From the sequence record OK254197.1: a stretch of 64,000 nt of DNA. One strand, written 5' to 3'. The DNA comes from Escherichia phage PNJ1902. Below the pieces are notes generated by a model. That model was not told where the DNA came from and ran no database searches. It saw only the letters and a list, made by a program, of their open reading frames with translations. This document shows, piece after piece, positions 228 to 43,288 of this stretch; positions within the stretch are counted from its first letter, which is position 1; every line of letters starts with the position of its first letter. Made by a program: the position numbers and the translations under genes.

Positions 228-2795
228 TCAAGCACCGAGAATCCTTCTCACGTTATCCAAATCTTTACATACAGCAATAAACTTATCATCCTTGTATTTG
301 CTATGATCTGGATGCTCTTTATCCATTGCAGCTAGTTTCTTATACTCGAACTCTGCATCAAGTAATACACCCTTGACATAACGAGTATATTCATCATCAT
401 CAATACAAGCGATTGATGGGTGCTGTTTCTTCATCTTACCACAAGAGTAGTCACGAGAACCTCCAGCTTCAGAATCTGAATCAATACCAATCGGACAGCC
501 AGGAATACTGATACCACGGTCTTTCTGAATATTACGAATCAGGATTTCATTGTATTGATCAATCAAGTCTTCACGAACAATAGCAACCACGGAGTCGTGA
601 ACCAGCATAACAATCTTCATCTCTTGTTCTAGGCCAAGAGAAATGATCTCATTATCTGCGTCTACAGCACCTAAAAGGAGACTATCAGAAGAAGCAGACT
701 GAATGATTGCGTTAAATCCAGAACGAATTTCTTCACCCTGAACACCACGGTCTTCGGAATGAATATTATGCAGACGACGCTTACGACCAAAGTGGCTATA
801 GATAAATCCATGATTCTTGATCTGATCGTGGCACTTATCAATCCAACGCTTAAGCTGTGGGAACTGACCGAAGTAAGTTTCAATGTACTCTTTAGCATCT
901 GCAACAGTACACTCTACAAACGGTTCGCCTGTCTTAGCAGCCTGCTCCAGAAGAGCTTCGTTAACAGAATGAGCTACTTTAGCTGGGCCAGAACCATATA
1001 GAATACCAAAGGTGATTGCTTTAGCTGCTTGACGCAGAGCTGGGAATAACTTTTTAACATCACGAGGCTCGCATTGGAGTTTAAATACCATGTGTGCGAT
1101 GTTAGAGTGGAAGTCAGGGTATTTATCAGGTTCATTTCTCATGTTGATAAATACTTGTTGCATATTTCTATCACCAGATAGAACAGCAGCATAATAAACT
1201 TCCGCAGTTGTTAAGTCCCATGCGATTACACGATACCCAGGAGGAGCTACTACACAACCCTTGATAATAGATTCATCACGAGGTAACTGTTGCAGGTTCA
1301 GTTTACCAGAAGAACTCAGACGACCAGAAGTAGTCATATGTTCGTGGAAACCAGTACGAATGCAACCATCAGCATCAATACTCAGAAGAATTTTCTCAAC
1401 GTAAGTAGAGATCAGCTTAGTCAGCTTACGAATCTCTAGTAGAGTCTTAGCAATTGGATGCTGCGTAGACAATTCGTTCAGAGCTTCTGCATCTGTAGAG
1501 TCTGCTCCAGTATCCGTCAATTTACCTGTTGGAGTTAAGCCAACATAGTCAAACAGAAGAACACGGAGTTGTTTAACAGAGTTTGGGTTAAACGCTTCGT
1601 TCTGATCCTTCTCTAGCTGAACGACTTCTGGATAAGTATACAGCTTCTCACGAGCTTTATTCAGATTATGGGTTAACTGGTACTGAGCTTCTTTTAAACG
1701 ATCAATAGAAATAGGTACACCACGATCCTCAACACGCTGGAGAAATACGCAACCAGGCATTAGAACATCATAATACAGACTGCAAAGTTTTTCATTCTTC
1801 TCAATTTTTGGTAAGAAGAAGTTGTGCAAACGTATAGTGGCATCGGTATCTTTTGCAGCGTAAGGCCACATAATATCAAACGGAATTAAATCATAGGTGA
1901 AATCTTCTTTCTTGATTTTATGTGTTTTGCAGTAATCATCCTTGAACTTATCTAGTTCAAAGTCATAGTCACCCATATCGGTATACTTCATTGCTAAAGA
2001 TTTCAAGCCATGAGTACCACGACGCTCATCTAGAACATAATGCTGCAACATGGTATCATGGAGCCTACGTTCTTTATGTGCTTTATCAAAAGTAAGTCCC
2101 AGATGGTACTTATAAAAGTGCATATCAAACTTCAAGTTGTGAAAAACAATAATGTGGTTTTCACTATCCAGAATTTTCTGGAGATAATATACTGCAACCT
2201 CTGTGAGACAATCAGAATCGATATATACACCCTGATACTCTTGGTGAGACATAGAAACACCAAGCAGATAACCATCTCGACAGTATAGTGCTGAGGTTTC
2301 GGAGTCGAATGCGACAGGTCCGATAACCATATTATACACCATCTTGATATATTCTTCCGCCTCATCGGGGTCAGTAATAGGACGGTAATCACCAGCTTTT
2401 GCAATCTTCTCACGACCATTGATAATATCGTGGATACTCTCTACTGTTGCATCAAAAACTGGTTTCATTTCAGGCTTAAAGTGTAACTGGGCTGGGCTGA
2501 TACTCGCAATCCAGTTAGCATATCCATTATACTCTACACGTTTACCAGTATAGTCACCGATACCTTTCTTACCTGCAAAATATAGGAAAGGTTCAGCACC
2601 TACTAGTATAACAAAATCATAATCATTCGGATCAAATGGGTTTTCTGGTGTTCCAATAGTAATATGTTTTTTAAGCAAACGACCAGATAACTTCTCGTTA
2701 CACATATGGAATACATCAACTTCCTCGCCATATAGCTGGAAATGTTTATCGTAACGAGTGTTATTTAGAGCTTTATCAACTACTGCGATTTTCAA
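228..2795 (-). CDS. DNA polymerase, family A (Pol I-like) with 3'-5' exonuclease domain
   Basis: 855 aa; position after primase/helicase as in T5; C-terminal palm region with conserved Pol A-type residues (…RRxAKxxxFGxxYG…, HDS/E motif). Confidence 0.85.
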   Translation of the reverse strand: MKIAVVDKALNNTRYDKHFQLYGEEVDVFHMCNEKLSGRLLKKHITIGTPENPFDPNDYDFVILVGAEPFLYFAGKKGIGDYTGKRVEYNGYANWIASISPAQLHFKPEMKPVFDATVESIHDIINGREKIAKAGDYRPITDPDEAEEYIKMVYNMVIGPVAFDSETSALYCRDGYLLGVSMSHQEYQGVYIDSDCLTEVAVYYLQKILDSENHIIVFHNLKFDMHFYKYHLGLTFDKAHKERRLHDTMLQHYVLDERRGTHGLKSLAMKYTDMGDYDFELDKFKDDYCKTHKIKKEDFTYDLIPFDIMWPYAAKDTDATIRLHNFFLPKIEKNEKLCSLYYDVLMPGCVFLQRVEDRGVPISIDRLKEAQYQLTHNLNKAREKLYTYPEVVQLEKDQNEAFNPNSVKQLRVLLFDYVGLTPTGKLTDTGADSTDAEALNELSTQHPIAKTLLEIRKLTKLISTYVEKILLSIDADGCIRTGFHEHMTTSGRLSSSGKLNLQQLPRDESIIKGCVVAPPGYRVIAWDLTTAEVYYAAVLSGDRNMQQVFINMRNEPDKYPDFHSNIAHMVFKLQCEPRDVKKLFPALRQAAKAITFGILYGSGPAKVAHSVNEALLEQAAKTGEPFVECTVADAKEYIETYFGQFPQLKRWIDKCHDQIKNHGFIYSHFGRKRRLHNIHSEDRGVQGEEIRSGFNAIIQSASSDSLLLGAVDADNEIISLGLEQEMKIVMLVHDSVVAIVREDLIDQYNEILIRNIQKDRGISIPGCPIGIDSDSEAGGSRDYSCGKMKKQHPSIACIDDDEYTRYVKGVLLDAEFEYKKLAAMDKEHPDHSKYKDDKFIAVCKDLDNVRRILGA

Positions 2796-35620: not shown

Positions 35621-36139
35621 ATGAATGTTGATGAGCTAACACAGCACCTCTTATCTAGAGGATTTGATACAGATAAATATCATTGCTGGTTAAGCCCGGA
35701 AGGGTGGCTAACAGTCCCATTGTATGACTTCTCTGGGATGTTGCGGGGCTATCAGACGTATAATCCTTCTGCTCCAAAAGGGCATGGTAAGTGCCCCTTT
35801 GAGGCTAAATATTTTACCTACTCCACTACACAGTGTGTATGGGGACTAGAAACTCTCAATGGAGATGAAAAAGTAGTATTGATTGCTGAATCTGTATTTA
35901 AGGCAGTTGCATTACATAATGCTGGTTATCCAGCCCTAGCAATGTTGGGTTCTACCCCAGGAAAAGCGTTATTAAAGCAACTGAAATTACTACCTTTTAA
36001 ATTGGTAGCTGTCGGGGATAATGATCCTGCGGGTGAAAAATTTGCTAGAAAATTGAACGGCTTTGTTTCTCCTGTAGATGTGGATGAGATGTCTACCGAA
36101 AACTTGAAAAATTTTCTTGCTATGAAGCTAAATTTCTAA
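35621..36139 (+). CDS. Toprim-domain protein
   Basis: 172 aa; conserved Glu (LIAES) and DxD (GDNDPAG). Confidence 0.5.
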   Translation: MNVDELTQHLLSRGFDTDKYHCWLSPEGWLTVPLYDFSGMLRGYQTYNPSAPKGHGKCPFEAKYFTYSTTQCVWGLETLNGDEKVVLIAESVFKAVALHNAGYPALAMLGSTPGKALLKQLKLLPFKLVAVGDNDPAGEKFARKLNGFVSPVDVDEMSTENLKNFLAMKLNF

Positions 36140-36160
36140 TATAATATATCTTATAAATTC

Positions 36161-36255: not shown

Positions 36256-36333
36256 GGTTCTCAAGCTCATATGGTATGAGCACCCGGCTCATAACCGGAA
36301 GGTACGTAGGTTCGAATCCTCGGGGAGCCACCA
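36256..36333 (+). tRNA. tRNA with CAU anticodon (Met/Ile2), tentative
   Basis: Acceptor GGTTCTC/GGGAGCC (2 GU), loop CTCATAA, TTCGAAT T-loop with weak 3-bp T-stem. Confidence 0.45.
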
Positions 36334-36351: not shown

Positions 36352-36540
36352 ATGGATCTATATATAGTTTATGTTGTGTTTATTCAAGATAGAGAATACC
36401 CGGATGAATATAAAAAAGGATATAGGCTAGCCAGAGCTACCTCTGAAGCCCAAGCTATGGATAAAGTGGCAGATTATATGATTACGGTAGAAAACGTACA
36501 CTATATAGACTACCTCGAAGCCTCAAAAGTAATTGACTAA
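36352..36540 (+). CDS. Hypothetical protein
   Basis: 62 aa ORF. Confidence 0.45.
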   Translation: MDLYIVYVVFIQDREYPDEYKKGYRLARATSEAQAMDKVADYMITVENVHYIDYLEASKVID

Positions 36541-36549
36541 GGAGACTAT

Positions 36550-36735
36550 ATGTCCAAGTTTCAAGAACTCAAGCAAGAGCTAGAAGAATGTGCCTGCCCT
36601 GAGTGTAGGGGAATTGGTGAAAGTTCTGATGCAGAAGCAGGAGATACTTTTTGCAATATCTGGGTTTGCCCAAATTGCAGTGGTACAGGTATTAATCCTA
36701 ACTGTGGTATTTCCCTAGATATTGAACGAGGATAA
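36550..36735 (+). CDS. Cys-rich small protein
   Basis: 61 aa; CxxC...CxxC pattern. Confidence 0.45.
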   Translation: MSKFQELKQELEECACPECRGIGESSDAEAGDTFCNIWVCPNCSGTGINPNCGISLDIERG

Positions 36736-36836
36736 TACCTATGAAACTAAAAGATTATTATATTGGTTGGTTTGTGGGACTAGTAGTAGGATTTTCACTA
36801 GGCTATAATATGTATCAACTAATAAACTGATTACAC

Positions 36837-36913
36837 GGGGGTGTAATCGAATTGGCATAGGTACTGGACTTAAAATTCAGGTTTTGTGGGTTCGAATCCC
36901 ACCACCCCTACCA
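36837..36913 (+). tRNA. tRNA with apparent UAA anticodon but class I (short variable arm) architecture
   Basis: Acceptor GGGGGTG/CACCCCT, anticodon stem CTGGA/TTCAG loop CTTAAAA, 5-nt variable loop, T-arm GTGGG-TTCGAAT-CCCAC, CCA encoded. Confidence 0.45.
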
Positions 36914-37088
36914 AATTAAGGAAATAAGATGTATAGACATCCACCTCCGCCAACACGTCGTTCTAGGGAAGTTATCCTCATGGAATTGACTAAAAACTTC
37001 AAGGCAACTCTTGAAGACAGAGATCTAGGCACGGATGAAGACATTGATTTTATTTGTAGACTATTAAAGATGAAACTGGAGAAAAAAC

Positions 37089-38717: not shown

Positions 38718-38800
38718 GGGTCGTTAGCCAAGCGGTTTGGCGGTGGACTGTTAATCCATGTCGAAAGACAACGTAGGTTCGAATCCTACACGGCCCGCCA
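38718..38800 (+). tRNA. tRNA with class II architecture (13-nt variable arm, G73) but apparent GUU anticodon
   Basis: Acceptor GGGTCGT/ACGGCCC, 3-bp D stem, anticodon stem GTGGA/TCCAT loop CTGTTAA, variable hairpin GTC-GAAA-GAC, T-arm GTAGG-TTCGAAT-CCTAC. Confidence 0.4.
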
Positions 38801-40972: not shown

Positions 40973-41473
40973 ATGAAGGTAGCTAAAAATGGGAGAAAAG
41001 ATAACTTAAATGAGTTAGAAATATTCCTCCACAATAACAAACTAGACGTAACCGCTAGTAATTACATGCAAATAGCTCTATGGTATAATGGGTATATAGT
41101 TAGGAAGGCCAATCCTAGTAAGGATAAGAAGTCAAATACATACCAAAAGAGACTAGAGCATAGCTATCAAAGATCCCTAAGAGTAGTACAGCTTTATTGT
41201 TATATCAATAATATAAATAATAAGCTGGGATATATTTATATAATATCTAATCCAGCTTTTCCAGGCTGGTTTAAAGTAGGAGCAGCCAAAGATGCTGAGA
41301 CTAGATTAAATACCTATCAAACATACTCCCCTTTTCGGGACTATGTATTAGAGTATTATAAACTAGTAGATAATTATGAACTCAAAGAAAAAGAAATCCT
41401 AAGTTCTTTTTCATCTAGAAATAATGAGTGGGTTCATGCTCCACTTGAAGAAATAATTGCTTGCGTGGCGTAA
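40973..41473 (+). CDS. T5orf172-domain (GIY-YIG-like) protein
   Basis: 166 aa; GYIYIISNP...KVGAA...RLNTYQT motif; 3' end overlaps tRNA-Leu start by ~15 nt. Confidence 0.55.
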   Translation: MKVAKNGRKDNLNELEIFLHNNKLDVTASNYMQIALWYNGYIVRKANPSKDKKSNTYQKRLEHSYQRSLRVVQLYCYINNINNKLGYIYIISNPAFPGWFKVGAAKDAETRLNTYQTYSPFRDYVLEYYKLVDNYELKEKEILSSFSSRNNEWVHAPLEEIIACVA

Positions 41474-41541
41474 TTGGTAGACGCGCGATCCTTAGGAGTT
41501 CGTGTTAATTCGTGTGGGTTCGAGTCCCTCCGCAAGCACCA
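41459..41541 (+). tRNA. tRNA-Leu (anticodon UAG), class II
   Basis: Perfect acceptor GCTTGCG/CGCAAGC, Leu-type D arm, loop CTTAGGA, long variable arm, A73, CCA. Confidence 0.55.
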
Positions 41542-41744: not shown

Positions 41745-41757
41745 AACAATTTATATG

Positions 41758-41851
41758 GTAGGTCAATCCAACGGCTGGCGCTGGACTCCGACTTGAAATC
41801 GGTTGATCGTAGTGATACGGTGTAAGGGTTCGATCCCCTTACCTACCTCCA
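41758..41851 (+). tRNA. tRNA-Ser (anticodon UGA), class II
   Basis: Perfect acceptor GGTAGGT/ACCTACC, loop CTTGAAA, long variable arm, T-loop TTCGATC, CCA. Confidence 0.5.
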
Positions 41852-42684: not shown

Positions 42685-42692
42685 AACAATAA

Positions 42693-42768
42693 GCGGTTAA
42701 GCACACGGGTTGTGCCGCAGGCCTTCCAAGCCTCGCTGAGTAGGGTTCGATTCCCTCTAGCCGCTCCA
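42693..42768 (+). tRNA. tRNA-Gly (anticodon UCC)
   Basis: Anticodon arm GGCCTTCCAAGCC as in E. coli tRNA-Gly(UCC), 3' end GCTCCA. Confidence 0.6.
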
Positions 42769-43201: not shown

Positions 43202-43288
43202 GCTGGGTTGGCAGAATGGTTGAATGCACCTGATTTGTAATCAGGAGGAGTAATCCCGTTGCAGGTTCGAATCCTGTGCCCAGCACCA
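43202..43288 (+). tRNA. tRNA with class II architecture (15-nt variable arm, A73) but apparent UGU anticodon
   Basis: Acceptor GCTGGGT/GCCCAGC, 3-bp D stem with 11-nt loop, anticodon stem CCTGA/TCAGG loop TTTGTAA, T-arm GCAGG-TTCGAAT-CCTGT, CCA. Confidence 0.4.

What the first reader, a model, noticed from the sequence alone, without database searches (positions are those of the whole stretch)
36837..36913. Class I tRNA carrying an apparent UAA (Leu-decoding) anticodon
Bacterial tRNA-Leu is class II, with a long variable arm that LeuRS needs. This gene has a clean 5-bp anticodon stem with loop CTTAAAA but only a 5-nt variable loop. Either the anticodon assignment is wrong, or this tRNA reads UUA/UUG with a non-Leu identity, or it is non-functional.
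Basis: inference. Interest (0 to 1): 0.6.

Follow-up and report, generated by a model that had tools for sequence, protein, structure and literature searches.

The report
Phage leucine tRNA lacking extra arm
This T5-like phage carries a real leucine tRNA (anticodon UAA) that lacks the long extra arm normally seen in bacterial leucine tRNAs but keeps every feature the host charging enzyme is known to need, and it belongs to a large, little-noticed family of such arm-less leucine tRNAs in phages.

Summary
Window 36837..36913 (+) encodes a 77-nt tRNA with anticodon UAA and a 5-nt variable loop (ARAGORN; Rfam 57.4 bits).

E. coli LeuRS does not need the long arm. It needs A73, the A15:U48 pair, G18G19 and A20a, and the gene has all of these. 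It also shares the 3-bp D stem, 11-nt D loop and G1.U72 pair of host tRNA-Leu(UAA).

The gene is identical in about 290 T5-like phage records and is usually annotated tRNA-Leu. T5 itself has lost it to the homing endonuclease gene hegA.

It belongs to a wide family. A scan that left the anticodon free found 129 foldable class I tRNAs with this D loop in viral contigs and 109 in bacterial assemblies. All of them carry Leu anticodons, all six types occur, U48 is invariant and A73 nearly so, and the stems covary strongly.

UUA is the phage's commonest Leu codon, and TTA/TTG align to Leu in T5 orthologues.

Best reading: an ordinary functional tRNA-Leu, charged by host LeuRS, that supplies UUA/UUG decoding. 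Charging has not been tested, and E. coli LeuRS rejects the one other bacterial class I tRNA-Leu that has been tested.

Interest is moderate: a new member of a known kind.

The parts
36837..36913 (+). Class I tRNA-Leu(UAA) gene, 77 nt including the encoded CCA
   Evidence: ARAGORN and Rfam at 57.4 bits. Identical in 292 phage records.
36849..36859 (+). 11-nt D loop GAATTGGCATA (G13 A14 A15 U16 U17 G18 G19 C20 A20a U21 A22), flanked by a 3-bp D stem. This is the tRNA-Leu-type D arm.
   Evidence: Same length and register as E. coli leuZ GAATCGGTAGA. It carries the determinants A14, A15, G18G19 and A20a listed in PMC9976931.
36871..36873 (+). Anticodon TAA (U34 A35 A36) in the loop CTTAAAA; reads UUA and UUG
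   Evidence: E. coli leuZ has the loop TTTAAAA.
36881..36885 (+). 5-nt variable loop GTTTT ending in U48, the partner of A15 in the Levitt pair
   Evidence: U48 is invariant in 129/129 viral and 109/109 genomic relatives although the search pattern did not specify it.
36910..36910 (+). Discriminator A73, the main Leu identity determinant
   Evidence: A73 is present in 129/129 viral and 107/109 genomic relatives although the pattern did not specify it.
36354..36906 (+). Block of three small ORFs plus the tRNA (all but its last 7 nt). In phage T5 this block is replaced by the hegA HNH endonuclease cassette.
   Evidence: blastn of the window against T5, junction sequences and the T5 annotation.
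36117..36145 (+). Promoter-like site upstream of the run tRNA-Ser(GCU), tRNA(CAU), three ORFs, tRNA-Leu(UAA). It may drive a polycistronic transcript. This is inferred only.
   Evidence: Consensus scan, 10 of 12 matches, but the region has no more such sites than shuffled sequence. T5 annotates promoter P15b at the syntenic place.
41459..41541 (+). The phage's second leucine tRNA, tRNA-Leu(UAG), 83 nt with a short extra arm (class II). Its anticodon complements UAA.
   Evidence: In SPC35 and Ob_P the same slot holds a 77-nt class I tRNA-Leu(UAG).

Best explanation
It is a functional leucine tRNA that has lost the long variable arm. The phage transcribes it within its tRNA and small-ORF cluster. 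Host enzymes process it, and the CCA end is encoded. Host LeuRS charges it with leucine, recognising A73 and the tRNA-Leu-type core (U8:A14, A15:U48, G18G19 and A20a in an 11-nt D loop on a 3-bp D stem) rather than the anticodon or the arm. It then decodes UUA and UUG, which tops up a codon the AT-rich phage uses more than its host does. Shown here: the gene's structure, its conservation, the family pattern and the codon meaning. Inferred: transcription, charging by LeuRS and the benefit to the phage.
For: (1) Two tRNA finders agree on the gene and the anticodon.
(2) All published E. coli LeuRS determinants are present (against PMC9976931). The body matches host leuZ feature by feature, apart from a 15-nt versus a 5-nt variable region.
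(3) Family test with the anticodon, position 73 and position 48 left free. Viral contigs gave 129/129 foldable hits with Leu anticodons (UAG 81, UAA 22, CAA 17, AAG 4, CAG 3, GAG 2), A73 in 129/129 and U48 in 129/129. Bacterial assemblies gave 109/109 Leu anticodons, A73 in 107/109 and U48 in 109/109. Anticodons that span both Leu codon boxes imply an identity that does not depend on the anticodon.
(4) Across 105 distinct sequences, every helix position is 95-100% paired and shows 3-7 pair types.
(5) Purifying selection. The gene is identical in 292 records, while only 2 of 388 records reach 99% identity over the surrounding 801 nt. The two variants I read change only wobble pairs to Watson-Crick pairs (G24A, U72C) or the variable position 20, with flanks 2-9% diverged.
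(6) In phage tRNA arrays, class I and class II Leu genes carry complementary anticodons in every co-occurring pair I printed. tRNA-Ser, whose synthetase needs the arm, is never class I in 99 genes.
(7) TTA is the phage's commonest Leu codon (25%, against 14% in an E. coli sample).
(8) TTA and TTG align to Leu in T5 orthologues (169/175 and 90/95). Where the codon changed, the change is mostly to another Leu codon (48/54 and 20/25).
Against: There is no aminoacylation or expression data for this gene. E. coli LeuRS failed to charge the only bacterial class I tRNA-Leu tested, S. coelicolor tRNA-Leu(CAA) (PMC6614811). That tRNA has C48, not U48. E. coli LeuRS domains contact the arm and favour larger arm loops (PMC3643597), so charging may be less efficient. 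T5 does without the gene, so it is dispensable in at least some settings. The codon-meaning test shows that UUA means Leu, but not which tRNA delivers it.
Confidence: 0.8

Rival explanations
1. The arm-less body is an adaptation and not a neutral deletion. It would let the phage's tRNA-Leu escape a host nuclease, toxin or other factor that recognises class II tRNAs or host tRNA-Leu, while the tRNA still works in translation. This adds to the best explanation and does not exclude it.
For: T5-type phage tRNAs are known to act as nuclease-resistant replacements (PMC12409363; references in PMC13056530). The class I state is discrete and recurs: variable regions are 5 nt or 11-17 nt with nothing at 7-10. 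It is enriched in phage tRNA arrays. From my own knowledge, human SLFN11 selectively cleaves type II tRNAs; that paper's title appears in the reference list seen.
Against: I found no bacterial defence that targets tRNA-Leu or reads the variable arm. AriB recognises the anticodon stem, HepS targets Thr, Ile and Ser, and the bacterial Schlafen paper reports no type II preference. Most phage tRNA-Leu(UAA) genes keep the arm (89 of 95). This same phage keeps a class II tRNA-Leu(UAG).
Confidence: 0.12
2. The tRNA is charged with an amino acid other than leucine, or is partly mischarged, so that UUA/UUG are read with a non-Leu identity.
For: A35 and A36 are shared with tRNA-Phe, and A35 and A73 with tRNA-Val, so some cross-recognition is conceivable. 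E. coli LeuRS rejected one class I tRNA-Leu.
Against: Relatives carry all six Leu anticodons and no others, which an anticodon-reading synthetase could not follow. The pair at 3-70 is G3-C70, so the tRNA lacks the alanine identity pair G3.U70. It has no long arm and has A73 (tRNA-Ser has G73), so not Ser. From my knowledge of E. coli identity sets, the Phe determinants G34, U20 and U59 are absent (the tRNA has U34, C20, A59), as is Val's C36. TTA and TTG align to Leu as well as the other Leu codons do, and TTA makes up 22 of every 1000 codons, so misreading would be costly.
Confidence: 0.04
3. It is a decaying or non-functional tRNA-like relic, or an RNA with a role outside translation such as a decoy or a processing signal.
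For: The cluster holds degenerate tRNA-like genes, for example the tRNA-Ser(UGA)-like gene at 41757..41847 with three acceptor mismatches. T5 annotates several tRNA-like stable RNAs. T5 lacks this gene.
Against: The cloverleaf is clean and has all the conserved tertiary positions. The gene is identical in 292 genomes with diverged flanks, and the variants I read preserve pairing. Family-wide covariation includes the anticodon stem, and A35 and the Leu anticodons are invariant. A relic or decoy would have no need to keep these.
Confidence: 0.04

Closest known systems
E. coli tRNA-Leu(UAA), leuZ (class II)
   Same: G1.U72, U8, 3-bp D stem, 11-nt D loop GAAT(C/T)GG(T/C)A(G/T)A, A26, YUUAAAA anticodon loop, U48, A73, encoded CCA.
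   Different: leuZ has a 15-nt variable region with a stem-loop, and the phage tRNA has 5 nt. The stem sequences are unrelated, and blastn finds no close homologue in 5,426 E. coli genomes.
Streptomyces coelicolor type I tRNA-Leu(CAA) (PMC6614811)
   Same: A bacterial-world tRNA-Leu with a 5-nt variable loop. It coexists with class II tRNA-Leu and is charged by a single LeuRS.
   Different: It has C48, not U48. A73 is not a determinant for ScoLeuRS. E. coli LeuRS does not charge it. It is chromosomal, not phage-borne. The phage family keeps the E. coli-type determinants A15:U48 and A73 invariant.
Animal mitochondrial tRNA-Leu(UUR)
   Same: Class I body, UAA anticodon, and A73 and A14 as identity elements (PMC9976931).
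   Different: It has a degenerate, floppy mitochondrial structure and is read by a dedicated mitochondrial LeuRS. The phage tRNA has a canonical, fully conserved core.
Engineered E. coli tRNA-Leu variants lacking the variable arm (Larkin 2002 and Asahara 1998, as summarised in PMC9976931)
   Same: These constructs show that the arm can be removed while A73 and the D/T-loop tertiary contacts still support leucylation. This is the design the phage tRNA has.
   Different: They are laboratory constructs. I could not read the primary papers, so I have no kinetic comparison.
Short-variable-loop tRNA-Leu(TAG) in horizontally acquired tRNA clusters of Mycobacterium (PMC6582537)
   Same: A class I tRNA-Leu in a mobile tRNA array that also carries an HNH endonuclease gene. 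It probably belongs to the same broad phenomenon.
   Different: It is mentioned in one sentence with no analysis of identity. It has a different host and a different anticodon.

Membership tests
tRNA (Rfam RF00005) | Cloverleaf with conserved U8, A14, G18G19, U33, G53-T54-T55-C56, A58 and C61, scoring above the family threshold | tested here: met
   57.4 bits against a gathering score of 29. ARAGORN gives the cloverleaf.
Bacterial tRNA-Leu as a substrate of E. coli-type LeuRS | Discriminator A73 | tested here: met
   A at 36910. The determinant is listed in PMC9976931.
Bacterial tRNA-Leu as a substrate of E. coli-type LeuRS | A15:U48 Levitt pair | tested here: met
   A15 at 36851 and U48 at 36885. 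The pair is invariant in the family.
Bacterial tRNA-Leu as a substrate of E. coli-type LeuRS | G18G19 placed as in tRNA-Leu, with A20a, A14 and a 3-bp D stem plus 11-nt D loop | tested here: met
   D loop GAATTGGCATA against leuZ GAATCGGTAGA, in the same register. Among the window's 24 tRNAs only the two Leu genes combine this D arm with U48 and A73. tRNA-Thr(UGU) comes close but has its GG one position earlier.
Bacterial tRNA-Leu as a substrate of E. coli-type LeuRS | D/T-loop contacts G18:U55, G19:C56 and U54:A58 | tested here: met
   The T loop TTCGAAT supplies U54, U55, C56 and A58. Whether the contacts actually form is inferred.
Bacterial tRNA-Leu as a substrate of E. coli-type LeuRS | Leucine anticodon | tested here: met
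   UAA. LeuRS does not use it as a determinant.
Bacterial tRNA-Leu as a substrate of E. coli-type LeuRS | Actually accepts leucine from host LeuRS | not testable with these tools
   This needs an aminoacylation assay.
Class II (type II) tRNA | Variable region longer than 10 nt that forms an extra stem-loop | tested here: not met
   The variable loop is 5 nt. The gene is therefore a tRNA-Leu by identity elements but not a class II tRNA.
Suppressor or recoding tRNA | Anticodon complementary to a stop codon, or a changed codon meaning | tested here: not met
   Anticodon UAA pairs with the codons UUA and UUG, not with a stop codon. TTA and TTG align to Leu in T5 orthologues.
tRNA-Ala | The alanine identity pair G3.U70 in the acceptor stem | tested here: not met
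   The pair at 3-70 is G3-C70, a Watson-Crick pair. The identity rule is from my own knowledge.
tRNA-Phe, tRNA-Val and tRNA-Ile (neighbouring anticodons) | Anticodon determinants: G34 for Phe, C36 for Val, U36 for Ile | tested here: not met
   The tRNA has U34, A35 and A36. The identity sets are from my own knowledge of the E. coli literature.

The most novel reading that the evidence does not exclude
Loss of the extra arm is a selected trait that recurs in phages. A widespread family of arm-less leucine tRNAs would be charged by ordinary bacterial LeuRS enzymes but would be invisible to some host factor that recognises class II tRNAs, such as a defence nuclease, a toxin or a turnover pathway. 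That would make tRNA architecture, and not only anticodon-loop sequence, a field of conflict between phage and host. It would also overturn the textbook statement that tRNA-Leu carries a long arm everywhere except animal mitochondria.
Probability: 0.12. Interest if true: 0.75.

Novelty: new member of a known kind. Interest (0 to 1): 0.42.

Why it matters
The review literature states that tRNA-Leu has a long arm in all organisms except animal mitochondria (PMC9976931). It also treats S. coelicolor as the single bacterial exception and its LeuRS as the only prokaryotic enzyme able to charge both types (PMC6614811).

The surveys here show hundreds of arm-less tRNA-Leu genes in phages and in bacterial tRNA arrays. 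They keep exactly the determinants that mutagenesis defined for E. coli LeuRS. This works as a natural experiment that confirms the identity rules: Leu can lose the arm, and Ser never does.

The practical points are these:
- Annotators should not flag such genes as errors.
- Phage tRNA-Leu(UAA) of the BASEL T5-like phages offers an easy system for testing whether enterobacterial LeuRS charges a natural class I substrate.
- Whether the loss of the arm has a selective reason is an open question.

Tried and rejected
- Alternative anticodon register: neither ARAGORN nor Rfam supports one.
- Recent capture from the host: blastn against 5,426 E. coli genomes finds only a 23-nt T-arm match on plasmids.
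- A homologous T5 gene with another identity: T5 has none. hegA replaces the segment and only the last 7 nt of the tRNA remain.
- Recoding of UUA/UUG: rejected by codon alignment to T5 orthologues.
- Link to known tRNA-targeting defences: the papers on Schlafen, HepS, AriB/PARIS and phage anticodon-loop evasion give no connection to tRNA-Leu or to the variable arm.
- Literature search for a prior description of a phage class I tRNA-Leu family: nothing beyond S. coelicolor and one sentence on Mycobacterium clusters. One search was wasted because 'RemAIN' matched the word 'remain'.
- Primary papers that were not held: Larkin 2002 and Sargen & Helaine 2024.
- Promoter and terminator scan: no more sites than in shuffled sequence, so it says nothing firm about transcription.
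- Plain single-sequence folding does not return the cloverleaf as the minimum-energy structure for this or several related tRNAs. That is usual for tRNAs and I did not count it as evidence.

Full report
**1. The observation**

ARAGORN finds 21 tRNA genes in the window. One is tRNA-Leu(taa) at exactly 36837..36913 on the + strand. The Rfam tRNA model matches 36837..36910 at 57.4 bits, E = 1.3e-10.

Read against the standard cloverleaf, the gene has these parts:
- acceptor stem GGGGGTG/CACCCCT, with G1.U72
- U8 A9
- D stem ATC/GGT, 3 bp
- D loop GAATTGGCATA, 11 nt
- A26
- anticodon stem CTGGA/TTCAG
- anticodon loop CTTAAAA, with the anticodon at 36871..36873
- variable loop GTTTT, 5 nt
- T arm GTGGG-TTCGAAT-CCCAC
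- A73 and an encoded CCA

It is a class I tRNA with anticodon UAA.

**2. Where the window comes from, and the T5 question**

The surrounding 801 nt match 388 phage records, all relatives of T5 that infect Salmonella and Escherichia (Demerecviridae, Markadamsvirinae). Most annotate the gene as tRNA-Leu.

The 77-nt gene is identical or nearly so (at least 99% identity) in 292 records.

T5 itself has no such gene. T5 homology to the window stops at 36353 and resumes at 36907. The block in between holds three small ORFs and all but the last 7 nt of the tRNA. In T5 that block is replaced by the HNH homing endonuclease gene hegA, and the remnant CCTACCA is still visible at the junction.

**3. Does LeuRS need the arm?**

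For E. coli the published answer is no. The identity review PMC9976931 says three things:
- A73 is crucial, but the anticodon and the long variable arm are not.
- Selection experiments found A15:U48, G18G19 and A20a to be essential.

The phage tRNA has every one of these elements. Set against the host's own tRNA-Leu(UAA), which I read from the K-12 genome (leuZ), it shares G1.U72, U8, the 3-bp D stem, an 11-nt D loop in the same register (GAATTGGCATA against GAATCGGTAGA), A26, the YUUAAAA anticodon loop, U48 and A73. The difference is a 5-nt variable region where leuZ has 15 nt.

Among the window's 24 tRNAs, only the two Leu genes combine this D arm with U48 and A73.

**4. Relatives**

Divergent blastn hits led to 77-nt relatives:
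- Vibrio phage JSF12 (UAG)
- Vibrio phage PG07 (UAG and UAA, adjacent)
- Obesumbacterium phage Ob_P (UAG)
- Aeromonas phage LAh_8 (UAG)
- Salmonella phage SPC35 (UAG)

In SPC35 and Ob_P the class I UAG gene sits in the slot after tRNA-Ala, where T5 and this window have a class II tRNA-Leu(UAG). So the two architectures replace each other at one locus.

**5. An unbiased family test**

I scanned IMG/VR for the D-loop design at class I spacing. The pattern fixed U8, R13, A14, A15, U16, G18, G19, A20a, U21, A22, U33 and the T loop. It left the anticodon, position 48 and position 73 free. The scan stopped at its 120-locus limit.
- Of 133 matches, 129 fold as cloverleaves.
- All 129 have Leu anticodons: UAG 81, UAA 22, CAA 17, AAG 4, CAG 3, GAG 2.
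- All 129 have A73 and all have U48.
- There are 105 distinct sequences.

The same scan of one genome per bacterial species gave 125 matches. Of these, 109 fold, with Leu anticodons in 109/109, A73 in 107/109 and U48 in 109/109. The 16 that do not fold act as a sample of chance matches and show no such regularities. Most of the 109 lie in multi-tRNA arrays.

Anticodons drawn from both Leu codon boxes, and from nowhere else, are what an anticodon-independent leucine identity predicts. They are very hard to reconcile with any other identity.

**6. Structure and selection**

Across the 105 distinct viral sequences, every helix position is paired in 95-100% of sequences and shows 3-7 different pair types. 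A35 is also invariant.

ARAGORN, run independently on the 120 viral loci, tRNA-Leu genes of 74-79 nt and 54 of 80 nt or more. In 46 loci both classes occur together. In every co-occurring pair I printed, the anticodons complement each other. All 99 tRNA-Ser genes keep the long arm, as expected if only LeuRS tolerates its loss.

Within the T5 group, only 2 of 388 records reach 99% identity over the surrounding 801 nt, while 292 records do so over the tRNA itself. The two variants I read are:
- phC17: G24A and U72C, each turning a wobble pair into a Watson-Crick pair
- EC148: C20U, at a position that varies across the family

Their flanks differ from the window at 2-9% of positions.

**7. Codons**

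In 57 long ORFs of the window, TTA is the most used Leu codon (25% of Leu, 22 per 1000 codons) and CTA accounts for 20%. A 49-kb E. coli sample analysed the same way gives 14% and 3%, with CTG at 49%. The phage's two Leu tRNAs (UAA and UAG) therefore cover the codons it favours and the host does not.

To test the recoding idea, I aligned 32 orthologous protein pairs between the window and T5, which lacks the gene. Of 175 TTA codons, 169 align to Leu, and 48 of the 54 changed codons are other Leu codons. For TTG the figures are 90 of 95 and 20 of 25. This is the same behaviour as CTN codons and control codons. UUA and UUG mean leucine here.

**8. How common is it?**

A second scan used the D loop plus the CTTAAAA anticodon loop and fixed nothing downstream, so it sampled phage tRNA-Leu(UAA) genes of either class. 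In loci not pre-selected for class I, 6 genes are class I and 89 are class II. Variable regions are 5 nt or 11-17 nt, with nothing at 7-10. A73 and U48 are present in 133 of 133. So the arm-less form is a discrete minority state for the UAA isoacceptor. It looks commoner for UAG.

**9. What is known**

Class I tRNA-Leu is established in animal mitochondria and in S. coelicolor tRNA-Leu(CAA) (PMC6614811). That paper calls ScoLeuRS the only prokaryotic LeuRS able to charge both types, and it reports that E. coli LeuRS does not charge the Streptomyces tRNA.

This is the main caveat to my explanation. However, the Streptomyces tRNA has C48, so it lacks the A15:U48 determinant that the phage family never loses.

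A Mycobacterium genomics paper notes in one sentence a short-variable-loop tRNA-Leu(TAG) in an acquired tRNA cluster (PMC6582537).

I found no paper that describes the phage family. The library is limited to open-access texts, so a prior description elsewhere cannot be excluded.

**10. Verdict**

The gene is a real, conserved leucine tRNA without the extra arm. It is most likely charged by host LeuRS and used to read UUA and UUG (confidence about 0.8). It is already annotated as tRNA-Leu in hundreds of records. What is new is the recognition that it is class I, that it keeps the E. coli determinant set, and that it belongs to a large family in phages and tRNA arrays.

Why the arm is lost is unknown. 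Escape from a host factor that recognises class II tRNAs is possible, but nothing I could find supports it.

Noticed in passing
window 43202..43288 (+): The inverse oddity: tRNA-Thr(UGU) is 87 nt and has a class II-like extra stem-loop in the variable region, together with A73, U48 and an 11-nt D loop. T5's own tRNA-Thr(UGU) is 75 nt. tRNA-Thr(UGU) is a main target of the PARIS nuclease AriB (PMC12409363), although AriB reads the anticodon stem.
   Followed up: partly
window 38718..38800 (+): tRNA-Asn(GUU) is 83 nt with an enlarged variable region of about 11-13 nt. T5's is 78 nt. tRNA-Asn(GUU) is a secondary AriB target.
   Followed up: no
window 36256..36330, 41757..41847 and 42692..42765 (+): Rfam found three tRNA-like genes that ARAGORN's default run missed. 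The first is a CAU-anticodon tRNA with weak stems, the counterpart of T5 tRNA-Ile2. The second is a tRNA-Ser(UGA)-like gene with three acceptor-stem mismatches and U73, probably decayed. The third is a tRNA-Gly(UCC).
   Followed up: partly
L002 (Escherichia phage APCEc03, KR422353) about 1293..1369: A mosaic hybrid gene: the 5' part is class I tRNA-Leu(UAA) and the 3' part is class I tRNA-Leu(UAG), and the roughly 5 kb of tRNA genes normally between them is missing. It looks like a deletion by recombination between the two paralogous class I Leu genes. The hybrid's anticodon stem no longer pairs.
   Followed up: partly
window 36354..36906 compared with T5 record 36372..37063 (L001): T5's hegA homing endonuclease cassette exactly replaces three small ORFs plus the tRNA-Leu(UAA) gene. 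This is an example of homing-endonuclease traffic remodelling the tRNA cluster.
   Followed up: yes
window 36550..36735 (+): The 61-aa ORF just upstream has CxxC...CxxC motifs. Many records annotate it as 'antitermination protein Q' or 'Q-like'. That is an unusual label for so small a protein inside a tRNA cluster.
   Followed up: no
L208 (Ezakiella peruensis), L137, L151, L210, L228 and L233 (Clostridia MAGs), and Acidobacteriota contigs such as L167, L187 and L238: Some class I tRNA-Leu genes in bacterial assemblies are the only tRNA in an 8-kb stretch, sometimes on very long contigs. Native chromosomal class I tRNA-Leu may therefore exist in lineages other than Streptomyces.
   Followed up: no
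window 41459..41541 (+); T5 tRNA-Leu1 (L001 3625..3709): Even the class II tRNA-Leu genes of T5-like phages have short extra arms (variable regions of 11-13 nt, against 15 nt in E. coli leuZ).
   Followed up: partly
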